DNA from: Monosiga brevicollis MX1
Lineage: Eukaryota
Assembly (NCBI RefSeq): GCF_000002865.3
Contig: NW_001865083.1
Location: 39,585-91,038 of the forward strand
DNA: 51,454 nucleotides
Direction of reading: 5' to 3'
Below, one piece after another: positions 30,652-33,600 of this stretch. How positions within the stretch are numbered: position 1 is the first letter of the stretch; each line of letters starts with the position of its first letter. The position numbers and the translations under genes are program-made. The notes under the pieces are model-generated. The model was given only the letters and a program-made list of their open reading frames with translations, did no database searches and was not told where the DNA came from.

Positions 30652-33600
30652 ATGGGCCTTGAACGTACCGGAGCAGGAGGTGGCGCGTCGGCAACATGTC
30701 GGGGCAGGGGTGTTTGGAGGGCTCGTACGCTTTCCTCGCTGCGCCTTCCCTTGCCACTGCTGCTGGCGGTGCTGCTGGTACTGGTCAACGTGGCGCTTCG
30801 AGGCGCTGTTCAGGCTGATATCGTGCATGGATTGGCAGTGGTCCAGCCCCGTTTGGTACTTGAACAACAACAACAACAACTCGATCCGTTTCGAAACATG
30901 ACCGCGCCACGGACCTGGCCCGCACTCCTGGTTCAATGGCTCGGCCCCTGGGCCGACTTTGCGCCGAGTTATCAAACCTCGCATCGGGTTTACCCCGCAA
31001 AGGCCGATTCCCGGGCGCTCGGCTCAGCGACACCCCTGCCCGTCTTTGAACTGCTGCAACGACCCGGCACGCTGACAGCCCTCGTGCAAGACGACGCCGG
31101 CGCCCTCGTCTATCGTTCAGACACTCAAGTTGCGCCCATCCCGCCAGACCTCAATACTTGGGACAAACTGTTTCAACACATTCAAACCCACCAACCCACC
31201 AGCTCTCTGGTCATTTTTCCCGAGCGCTTCTCTCACACGTTTGCCCTCGACCTTGACCCCTGGCTCTACGACGACTATTACCAAGCCCTGACCGACGCCT
31301 TCAACGTCCCTGTAACGCAACATGTCTACATTACCGGCCCCGCCGGTCGTGCCCTCAACCCGCACACCGATGGCGGTGATGTCTTTGTTCGCCAGATATC
31401 CGGGTCCAAACATTGGCAACTCTGCGTCCCCCGCCTCCAGGACCCCTCGGTTTGCCAACCCTCCGCCCCCTCCCCCACGGCTCACCCGTGCACCGATGGT
31501 GCCCGCGCTCGCTACGCCGAATGGAAACGCGACCAATTTGAGGGTTGCACCCCGTACACCATGGGCCAGCTTGCTGACATGGACTGCAGCAACATCACCC
31601 TGCACCCAGGAGATACCCTCTACCTCCCACGTGGCATCGTCCATCACGCCTGGACCGACTCTGGCATCACCAGCACCCATGTGACTTATCAACTTCAGAG
31701 CAAAGACGCCACTCTCTTCGACCGCCTTCGCAACCAATGTTACGCTCGTGCCAGCACCGGCACCCGCTGGTGTGACTCACTTGACAACCTCGTCGCCAAC
31801 AACTTTCCCCATGCTACCAGCGACCTTCTTCGTCTCGCATCCACTCTTCACGAGGTCTGCACTCACGACTGCAACAGCACCGCCCCTCCTCAAACTCTGG
31901 TTGTTGTTGTTTTTTTTTAACATGTTGCTCTCTTCCACTTGTTTTCTCACTTGACCACACTCTCCTCGTTCGTCTCCTGCAGGATAAAATTGCAGCCATG
32001 TTATGGCAGCTGCGCTTCAACTACAAAGACTTGATGACTACTCTCGCTCGGCCACGTCGAGACATTACAAGCAAAGATCATCCTCCGCCCGGGTGAGACT
32101 TTTGTAATACGTTGTTGTAAACTGCTCCTCTCTCACGTCCATGCCCGTCTGTGCCATTGTGAAAATATTCACATCTTATTACGCCATACTTTTTTTATAG
32201 ATGTAATAGCGCGAGCAGTTGTGATTTTAATTGCTGGAGCGGCTGTGACTTCTGTAGTGTTTGCTGCGACGACGGCTGCATAAGTTCATGTGACAGTACG
32301 TGGATCAGGAGTTGGCTATCGTACGACGTGCAAGGACTCCGTTGACCCTCATCGGAATATGTTGTGTTTGTTTGACTCGATTTGCTAAGCGGCATATTGT
32401 CCCGGCGTGGAATGTCCTGATGATGTCCCCGCTCGACAAGGCTCTTACTGCTACTCTTGTACGTGCACGCGCCTTACTGACTGTATTGAGCGTGTTCAAA
32501 TTGTGTCTCATGCTGTGTTCGCTTGTCTGCGATTGCAGCCTGGGTCGAGTGTGATGAAGGCGAATACTACGTTTCCATCGACGACGATTGTGCCAATTGC
32601 CCTTCAGGTGGGTTGCGTTGCGCGTTCTGCCTACCTTTTTATACCTTCTGGTCACATCTTGTTTTCCTCTTTGTTCGTTTTTGCTCTTGGCATCTGAATC
32701 AGACTCATCGCGCACGATCTGATCTGTTGCTTCTCGTTTGTGTCTTCTTTTGTGTGTATGTGTATGTGTATGTGTATGTGTATGTGAATGTGTATGTGTA
32801 TGTGTATGTGTATGTGTATGTGTATGTGTATGTGTATGTGTATGTGTATGTGTATGTGTATGTGTATGTGTATGTGTATGTGTATGTGTATGTGTATGTG
32901 TGTGTGTGTTTTTTCTAATGATTATTACCAGGCAAATACCAAACGGACAGAGATCATATCAAACGCACATGCATCGACAAGACTGCGGCGTGCGACGCTG
33001 GCAAGTATCTTGTTGTGACTTCATCGTCCAGTGACAATTACTGTGCCACATGTTCTGAAGGAAAGTACCAGGCCAGTGCCGGTTATGCTGGCACCAGCTG
33101 CTCAGACAAGCTTGCCACCTGCGGTCTGGGTCAATATTTATCGATCTCCAACTCGGTCACCCAAGACAACTCGTGTATCAACTGCCCGGTGCAAACATCT
33201 TACCAAGACCAAGCATCACATAGCGATACCAGTTGCAAGGCCAGAGTAGTGCTGACCTGTGGGCTGGGCCAGCGTCTGGTGTATGAAGATGCCACCATGG
33301 ATAATAGATGCGTTTCGTGCACGAGTGGTACCTACCAAGATCAAGCTTCGCATGCTGATGTCACGTGCAAACCCCAACGCACCTCGTGCAATGCTGGTCG
33401 CCACTTGAAGCTCGCGGACAACACTGCCGACAACACGTGCACGCGCTGCCCGGCCGGTGAGTACCATTGCCGAGCTCTCTTCAATTTACCTTTGCTCTAA
33501 ATCTGATCATCGGGTGTCTTTCGTCATGTTAGGAACCTACCAAAGCCTCAATGGCTTTACTGGCACGAGCTGCGCCGCAAAGACCGCTTCATGCCCTGTG

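What the first reader, a model, noticed from the sequence alone, without database searches (positions are those of the whole stretch)
30652..32460. Receptor ectodomain carrying its own JmjC hydroxylase, a furin site and a Cys/Asp-rich peptide: possible self-modifying (RiPP-like) receptor
Seen: a signal peptide is followed by a JmjC/cupin_4-type domain with an intact HxD...H iron triad (PHTD; IVHHA), the 2OG-binding Lys (GSKHW) and a Cys-containing insertion. It splices in frame to RPRR (32049-32060) and then to a separate exon encoding GCNSASSCDFNCWSGCDFCSVCCDDGCISSCD, which sits at the tip of a long Cys-rich/Ig-like stalk. Established: JmjC oxygenases are normally cytosolic or nuclear; RxxR is a furin-type site; 2OG/Fe enzymes such as CinX beta-hydroxylate Asp in peptides; beta-hydroxy-Asp is an Fe(III) ligand in siderophores. 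Inference: the luminal JmjC modifies the adjacent CD-rich segment in cis and is then cleaved off, leaving a modified, possibly metal-binding N-terminus on a signalling receptor. An alternative is an extracellular O2/Fe/2OG sensor.
Basis: partly seen in the sequence, partly recalled or inferred. Interest (0 to 1): 0.9.

Follow-up and report, generated by a model that had tools for sequence, protein, structure and literature searches.

The report
Receptor carrying its own peptide-modifying oxygenase
This spliced gene encodes a choanoflagellate-type surface receptor whose outer tip holds an iron oxygenase, a protease site and a Cys-Asp-rich peptide; the same trio recurs in many relatives, some being little else, so the enzyme likely modifies its own peptide before being cut off.

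Summary
The window holds a 13-exon, 2429-aa gene; all 12 junctions appear in spliced contigs, and one contig spans the JmjC domain to past the membrane helix. The JmjC is MINA53/NO66-like with intact H238-D240-H331 and K253. The receptor architecture was described in 2010 (PMC2938197). What I did not find in print is the conserved unit behind the enzyme. A C(D/N)-rich peptide follows the JmjC in 52 of 149 homologues and never precedes it (0 of 103). R-x-[KR]-R sits just before the peptide in 22 of 52, against 0.2 expected. With a D/N-blind definition, Cys+1 is Asp/Asn in 300 of 569, against 142 in shuffles. A large clade is only hydrophobic leader, JmjC, R-x-L and peptide. A subfamily-specific Cys (C299) aligns next to the NO66 substrate-loop residue S373. 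Best reading: a fused, self-modifying precursor like burpitides or borosins, probably beta-hydroxylating Asp/Asn, here displayed on an SH2 receptor. Chemistry, cleavage and function are untested, and the closest paralogue models lack the peptide.

The parts
30652..30816 (+). Start ATG, basic n-region (aa 1-31), hydrophobic h-region (aa 32-49), AVQA putative signal-peptidase site
   Evidence: hydropathy only
30652..31854 (+). Exon 1: leader, JmjC domain and start of helical (dimerisation-like) domain
31222..31701 (+). JmjC catalytic core, MINA53/NO66 type: H238 (31363), D240 (31369), K253 (31408), H331 (31642)
31423..31587 (+). Strand IV-V insertion bounded by subfamily Cys C258 (31423) and C312 (31585); holds C299 (31546), which aligns within one residue of NO66 S373
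31702..32039 (+). Helical segment after the JmjC (aa 351-420), like the start of the ROX dimerisation domain; no room for a winged helix
31983..32092 (+). Exon 2, with RPRR (32049-32060), a predicted kexin/furin-type site
   Evidence: family enrichment
32201..32295 (+). Exon 3: Cys/Asp-rich peptide (aa 439-469; 9 Cys, 5 followed by D/N), predicted substrate core
32390..32458 (+). Exon 4: short Cys-containing linker
32539..34558 (+). Exons 5-10: Cys-rich GCC2/3 (Ephrin_rec_like) stalk, aa 493-920
34683..37183 (+). Exons 11-12 and start of exon 13: Ig-like (PF16403)/HYR repeats
37610..37672 (+). Single transmembrane helix (aa 1815-1835)
37673..38797 (+). Cytoplasmic Tyr-rich tail (YDMP, YASP and YEEP repeats), no kinase domain
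38819..39457 (+). Two SH2 domains and stop codon

Best explanation
This is one spliced gene for a single-pass receptor whose outer end likely works as a fused self-modifying precursor: the luminal JmjC oxygenase would hydroxylate Asp/Asn in the adjacent Cys-Asp peptide and would then be cut off at RPRR. SHOWN: the gene structure, the intact Fe/2OG ligands, and the conserved order enzyme - basic site - C(D/N) peptide across the subfamily. INFERRED, in order: (1) the chain enters the ER. (2) The JmjC, which has lost the winged-helix domain of ribosomal oxygenases, gets its substrate by covalent tethering, in cis or across a dimer; C299 may help through a mixed disulfide. (3) It beta-hydroxylates the Asp/Asn that follow Cys. 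(4) A kexin-like convertase cuts at RPRR. (5) The modified, disulfide-rich acidic peptide becomes the tip of a roughly 1350-aa stalk, where it likely binds a metal ion (Fe3+ or Ca2+) or a partner. (6) The Tyr-rich tail and SH2 pair relay this through kinases acting in trans. Relatives use the same unit as a secreted peptide, on short or long TM anchors, or with a Hint domain.
For: One transcript-derived contig of 6421 nt runs from 30525 to 38461 with all 12 introns removed. Iron and 2OG ligands are conserved (H 141/145, D 140/145, K 146/146, H 136/139). Three Cys mark the subfamily (139/147, 125/144, 135/144); where human ROX has Tyr and Val there are C258 and C312. A hydrophobic leader is present in 48 of 68 versus 2 of 68 controls. 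The C(D/N) cluster follows the JmjC in 52 of 149 homologues and in 27 of the 37 subfamily members with at least 350 aa after H331; it precedes the JmjC in 0 of 103. D/N-blind test: Cys+1 is D/N in 300 of 569, shuffled mean 141.9, maximum 169 of 2000 shuffles; R-x-[KR]-R lies within 30 aa before the stretch in 24 of 71 (0.3 expected); R-x-L lies within 15 aa in 13 of 25 helix-less members (1.9 expected). Of 17 new hits, 14 end right after the peptide. The peptide is spread across the subfamily tree. D/N interchange mirrors AspH and FIH (PMC6817910). A JmjC enzyme, BipG, is described as a hydroxylase of a bacterial RiPP precursor (PMC12707348, passages). M. brevicollis has two kexin-like genes (10.1101/802215).
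Against: No biochemical data. The nearest relatives by tree and score (P0004, P0005, P0006, P0009) show no site or peptide in their database models, although the database model of this very gene (P0003) loses 19 of the 31 peptide residues by mis-splicing. 23 homologues with at least 250 aa after H331 lack the cluster within 400 aa; some have other Cys-rich domains after a basic site. The window's peptide is degenerate: 5 of 9 Cys are followed by D/N and there is no perfect C[DN]xxC[DN] tandem. Homologues are related, so the counts are not independent events. The hits were found with a profile that included the peptide. The RNA evidence comes from one study (P2), as contigs only.
Confidence: 0.55

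Rival explanations
1. Extracellular sensor: the JmjC stays on the receptor, uncut or held by a disulfide after cutting, and O2/Fe/2OG-dependent binding or turnover of the tethered peptide switches signalling through the Tyr tail and SH2 domains.
For: Proposed for these receptors in PMC2938197. The signalling tail is present. C299 could link the enzyme to the peptide. P0009 joins the JmjC to a tyrosine kinase with no site or peptide in its model.
Against: A processing site is kept between enzyme and peptide. 22 of 52 peptide-bearing homologues end within 130 aa of the cluster start, and only 19 of 52 have a TM helix, so many cannot signal across a membrane.
Confidence: 0.17
2. Same self-modifying design but other chemistry: the enzyme forms C-S crosslinks (Cys to Asp C-beta), oxidises Cys, or hydroxylates a residue other than Asp/Asn.
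For: Period-4 Cys spacing dominates (241 of the spacings, next 55). There is a conserved Cys in the substrate loop. Cys-to-Asp thioethers are known in radical-SAM ranthipeptides (recalled).
Against: The closest enzymes are C-H hydroxylases (PMC6182338). Free D/N exchange at Cys+1 (0.39/0.14) suits Asp/Asn beta-hydroxylases. Luminal Cys are expected to be disulfides.
Confidence: 0.13
3. The JmjC modifies other secreted proteins or a ligand in trans; the Cys-Asp peptide is an unmodified Ca/metal-binding or recognition module that merely travels with it.
For: PMC2938197 proposes hydroxylation of cell-surface proteins. Frustulin ACR hexapeptides (CQGDCD) are considered Ca-binding (PMC4712521). Subfamily members without the peptide exist in the databases.
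Against: This does not explain the fixed order, the intervening protease site, or precursors that are only enzyme plus peptide.
Confidence: 0.13
4. Annotation artefact: JmjC and receptor are separate genes, or the JmjC is dead.
For: The intron-1 donor is weak (GTCTGC), and read-through ends at a stop at about 31921.
Against: Spliced contigs join all exons. The ligands are intact. The same architecture occurs in named choanoflagellate proteins.
Confidence: 0.02

Closest known systems
Monosiga receptor-like MINA/No66 proteins with extracellular JOR/JmjC (Iyer et al. 2010, PMC2938197; passages read, supplement not readable)
   Same: Extracellular MINA/NO66-type JmjC with GCC2/3 repeats, Ig-like domains and intracellular SH2; proposed as surface hydroxylases or redox sensors.
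   Different: The passages read name no convertase site, no C(D/N) repeat as a tethered substrate, and no minimal secreted enzyme-peptide forms. Its uncharacterised Cys-containing domains MSD2/4/5 may include the peptide; I could not see them.
Ribosomal oxygenases MINA53/RIOX2, NO66/RIOX1, YcfD (PMC6182338, passages)
   Same: Fold (Z 18.3 and 17.9), HxD...H triad, 2OG Lys, helical domain after the JmjC.
   Different: Luminal, three subfamily Cys, long strand IV-V insert, no winged helix; followed by a protease site and a Cys/Asp peptide.
Fused (autocatalytic) RiPPs: plant burpitides and fungal borosins (PMC11253845, passages)
   Same: Secretory precursor with modifying enzyme and repetitive core in one chain, released by proteolysis (predicted here).
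   Different: The enzyme is a 2OG/Fe JmjC, not a Cu-BURP cyclase or a methyltransferase. The core can stay at the tip of a signalling receptor. No product is known.
AspH and EGF-like substrates (PMC6817910, abstract and passages)
   Same: ER-luminal 2OG oxygenase; Asp/Asn beta-hydroxylation in disulfide-constrained loops.
   Different: AspH is a separate enzyme with TPRs and two His ligands acting in trans; the peptide here is not an EGF domain.
Diatom frustulin ACR domains and RXL-processed precursors (PMC4712521, PMC5647440, passages)
   Same: Acidic CxxxCD-like motif; R-x-L sites as in the helix-less clade.
   Different: Frustulins have no JmjC, and the peptide lacks the ACR hexapeptide pair.

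Membership tests
Monosiga receptor-like MINA/No66 (Iyer 2010) | Extracellular MINA/NO66-clade JmjC | tested here: met
   topology from hydropathy
Monosiga receptor-like MINA/No66 (Iyer 2010) | GCC2/3, Ig or Sushi ectodomain plus intracellular SH2 or Tyr kinase | tested here: met
   one transcript contig to past the TM helix
Ribosomal oxygenases (ROX) | JmjC with HxD...H and 2OG Lys | tested here: met
Ribosomal oxygenases (ROX) | Helical dimerisation domain after the JmjC | tested here: inconclusive
   Helices are predicted and align to NO66 up to residue 503, but pLDDT falls to 48-67 and rmsd is 4.7-4.8; dimerisation not tested
Ribosomal oxygenases (ROX) | C-terminal winged-helix domain | tested here: not met
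   Only about 70 aa of helices lie between the JmjC and RPRR, then Cys-rich sequence
Ribosomal oxygenases (ROX) | Hydroxylates a ribosomal protein inside the cell | not testable with these tools
   The predicted luminal topology argues against it
Fused RiPP precursors (burpitide/borosin type) | Modifying enzyme and repetitive core in one chain | tested here: met
   (core status is inferred)
Fused RiPP precursors (burpitide/borosin type) | Conserved proteolytic site between enzyme and core | tested here: met
   motif enrichment; cleavage itself untested
Fused RiPP precursors (burpitide/borosin type) | Enzyme shown to modify the core; product detected | not testable with these tools
   needs MS
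Fused RiPP precursors (burpitide/borosin type) | BURP or borosin methyltransferase domain | tested here: not met
   Pfam gives JmjC_2 and Cupin_8 only for exon 1; it works like these families but is not a member
EGF-like AspH substrates | EGF domain with the AspH consensus | tested here: inconclusive
   Exon 3 was not scanned with Pfam. No EGF family was listed for 15 homologues at E 1e-5, and period-4 Cys spacing is unlike EGF
Frustulin ACR domain | CQGDCD and VPGCSG hexapeptides | tested here: not met
   Absent from the translated model by inspection
Receptor tyrosine kinase | Cytoplasmic kinase domain | tested here: not met
   Exon 13 gives SH2 only; paralogue P0009 has a kinase

The most novel reading that the evidence does not exclude
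A previously unrecognised eukaryotic class of autocatalytic RiPP: secreted JmjC enzymes carry their own (C-D/N-x-x)n core, poly-beta-hydroxylate it and are clipped off. The product is a gene-encoded, siderophore-like or Ca-binding peptide that is secreted by some microbial eukaryotes and mounted by choanoflagellates on phosphotyrosine receptors as a self-made sensing tip.
Probability: 0.35. Interest if true: 0.92.

Novelty: new variant of a known kind. Interest (0 to 1): 0.78.

Why it matters
The 2010 prediction of extracellular JmjC receptors left their substrate unknown. The conserved enzyme - cleavage site - C(D/N) peptide unit names a concrete substrate, and the roughly 330-aa minimal homologues make it testable with one expression and MS experiment. 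If right, it adds a third enzyme type to fused RiPPs, alongside BURP cyclases and borosin methyltransferases. [quoted passage not shown]

Tried and rejected
Single-sequence AlphaFold gave pLDDT 35.6 and was discarded. The complex prediction of JmjC, exon-3 peptide and Fe gave no verdict. Word-index protein searches with exon 1 found nothing among longer proteins and only 2 bacterial-type hits at near length. The metagenome scan gave 9 loci, and the 7 translated look like bacterial ROX without the Cys set. No scan of prokaryote genomes was obtained, so a bacterial origin of the three-Cys subfamily is untested. The ESM Atlas gave no result. No whole genome is held, so paralogue gene models (P0005, P0009) could not be re-spliced. 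No listed run is on record as RNA; splicing in the contigs is the evidence. X8 gave an unspliced 879-nt contig, kind unknown. The careful tree did not finish; the quick tree has no human NO66/MINA row. The Cys+1 figure (67% D/N) is circular and was replaced. No names exist for the minimal clade, so 'diatom' is only a lead from the RXL motif. Chowdhury 2014 and Manning 2008 are not held; the use of S373C/Y209C for substrate cross-linking is recalled, with only the PDB titles and the general strategy seen. JmjC mentions in PMC3832940 and PMC4855317 and the iron paper PMC11934334 were not informative.

Full report
GENE. Exon 1 is a 401-codon open frame from ATG 30652. Twelve GT-AG introns give an uninterrupted 2429-aa protein ending at 39457. 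Contigs of runs X3 and X5 skip introns 1-4 exactly and carry a loose end matching exon 6. X3, X4 and X6 skip introns 6-12 and carry a loose end matching exon 5. One 6421-nt X3 contig covers 30525-38461, from before the ATG to beyond the TM helix. These four runs are one study and are only guessed to be RNA, but X1 and X2 show the same DNA unspliced. The database model of this gene (P0003, 2295 aa) lacks 19 of the 31 residues of the Cys/Asp peptide and exons 4, 7 and 8, which may be why the peptide has gone unnoticed. The organism is not given; the named relatives are choanoflagellate proteins.

ANATOMY. The order is: leader (h-region aa 32-49), JmjC (PF08007, E 3.8e-16), helices, RPRR (424-427), C(D/N) peptide (439-469), GCC2/3 repeats, Ig-like/HYR repeats, TM helix (1815-1835), Tyr-rich tail, two SH2 domains, no kinase. 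The best sequence matches among solved structures are MINA53 (2e-11) and NO66 (8e-10). An alignment-based model of aa 85-401 (pLDDT 80.5, pTM 0.78) matches NO66 at E 1.6e-14 and MINA53 at Z 18.3 over 244 residues, rmsd 3.9. ROX enzymes have a dimerisation domain and a winged helix (PMC6182338, passages). Here only about 70 aa of helices precede RPRR, so the winged helix is absent.

WHAT IS KNOWN. Iyer et al. 2010 (PMC2938197, passages; supplement not readable) describe a Monosiga expansion of receptor-like MINA/No66 proteins with GCC2/3, Ig or Sushi domains and SH2 or kinase tails, and suggest surface hydroxylases or redox sensors. The architecture is therefore known.

THE CONSERVED UNIT. The representative search gave 2197 proteins at E up to 0.001; the best 150 were listed, one being this gene, leaving 149. 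Metal and 2OG ligands are near invariant, and three Cys define a subfamily: C258 139/147, C299 125/144, C312 135/144. In a quick tree of 162 rows, 146 rows including this gene stand apart from 16 rows that hold all 7 bacterial ROX-like sequences (SH-aLRT 99). A hydrophobic leader is found in 48 of 68 near-complete members, against 2 of 68 in a control segment.

A cluster of at least three C(D/N) in 40 aa lies within 400 aa after the last His in 52 of 149 homologues; many of the rest are fragments. Among subfamily rows with at least 350 aa after that His it is 27 of 37. It lies upstream of the JmjC in 0 of 103. R-x-[KR]-R precedes it within 30 aa in 22 of 52, with 0.2 expected from the same proteins. 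To avoid circularity I redefined the stretch by Cys density alone (71 of 132 subfamily rows). Cys+1 is then D or N in 300 of 569, against a shuffled mean of 141.9 (maximum 169 in 2000 shuffles); Cys+4 is Cys in 46%; R-x-[KR]-R precedes it in 24 of 71 (0.3 expected); and in helix-less members R-x-L lies within 15 aa in 13 of 25 (1.9 expected). Rows are cluster representatives at 50% identity but still kin.

MINIMAL FORMS. A well-supported clade lacks the helical domain, and many members are only leader, JmjC, R-x-L and a 40-80-aa C(D/N) peptide. A search with their alignment gave 29 hits, 17 of them new: 14 end after the peptide, one adds a TM helix, one a HYR domain, and one lacks the peptide. 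I could not check their stop codons or name their hosts. Of the 52 peptide-bearing homologues, 19 have a later TM helix and 22 end within 130 aa; P0119 carries a Hint domain. The peptide thus looks like cargo deployed on different anchors. R-x-L is described as a processing site in diatom biosilica proteins (PMC5647440, passages). [quoted passage not shown]

ACTIVE-SITE HINT. A subfamily profile aligns C299 with NO66 S373 (in the S373C mutant) or S374 (in wild type), and C258 and C312 with Tyr and Val. NO66 S373C and MINA53 Y209C are the mutants in substrate-peptide complexes (titles); that they serve disulfide trapping of substrate is recalled from Chowdhury 2014, which was not held. So C299 likely faces the substrate groove. 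It might instead pair with a later Cys of the enzyme, as the helix-less clade has a fourth one.

MECHANISM. Inferred: luminal folding; tethered delivery of the peptide in place of the lost winged helix; beta-hydroxylation of Asp/Asn, by analogy to AspH and FIH (PMC6817910) and to hydroxylation by ROX enzymes; convertase cleavage; display of the modified peptide on the stalk; signalling through the Tyr tail and SH2 pair. Precedents for the parts exist: fused burpitides and borosins (PMC11253845, passages), the RiPP JmjC hydroxylase BipG (PMC12707348, passages), and PF08007 proteins with RRE-like folds whose bacterial homologues lie in RiPP-like contexts (PMC12710340, passage). That beta-hydroxy-Asp binds Fe(III) in siderophores is recalled.

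AGAINST. Nothing biochemical is shown. The closest rows (P0004, P0005, P0006, P0009) show no site or peptide in their models, and 23 long homologues lack the cluster within 400 aa. This gene's peptide is a degenerate copy (5 of 9 Cys followed by D/N). The function of the mature peptide (metal binding or recognition) is open.

NOVELTY. Paper searches showed, in their listings, no paper on a JmjC - convertase site - Cys/Asp peptide unit; only PMC2938197 covers these receptors. The library lacks most subscription papers, and the unread supplement of PMC2938197 may define the peptide as one of its MSD domains. Earlier scan notes gave no match by sequence or words. Verdict: a known receptor type with an apparently undescribed, conserved self-modification cassette; new variant of a known kind; interest 0.78.

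Noticed in passing
window 27500-30070 (+): Proteasome subunit RPN3/PSMD3-like gene directly upstream (Pfam TPR_PSMD3_N); ordinary neighbour.
   Followed up: no
window 40276-41800 (-): Long ORF with right-handed beta-helix and CHB_HEX_C/Fn3-associated domains, probably a secreted carbohydrate-active protein; a further exon with a hydrophobic leader lies near 41733-42305.
   Followed up: no
window 43105-47212 (+): Gene with many near-identical short exons, each apparently encoding one LTNVDGLGNITSVGG-type repeat, with repeated introns; looks like one-exon-one-repeat LRR/receptor-L cassettes. The first ORF had no Pfam hit.
   Followed up: no
window 48385-49880 (+): Pirin-family cupin gene (PF02678) preceded by an ORF with a hydrophobic leader.
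   Followed up: no
L008 1-330 and about 1350-2208: Bacterial metagenome locus: an ORF with three tandem repeats of about 21 aa ending in SDFC lies upstream of a dehydrogenase-like ORF and a ROX-like JmjC gene; RiPP-precursor-like.
   Followed up: no
P0119 (homologue): JmjC - RxL - C(D/N) peptide - Hint module: the peptide could be released or lipid-anchored by Hedgehog-type autoprocessing.
   Followed up: partly
P0010, P0016, P0050, P0099 (homologues): A subclade replaces the C(D/N) repeat with a different Cys-rich domain, in some cases after a basic site; possibly another substrate type.
   Followed up: partly
window 32201-32458 and 33533-33921: The database model P0003 omits part of exon 3 and exons 4, 7 and 8, which spliced contigs support.
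   Followed up: yes
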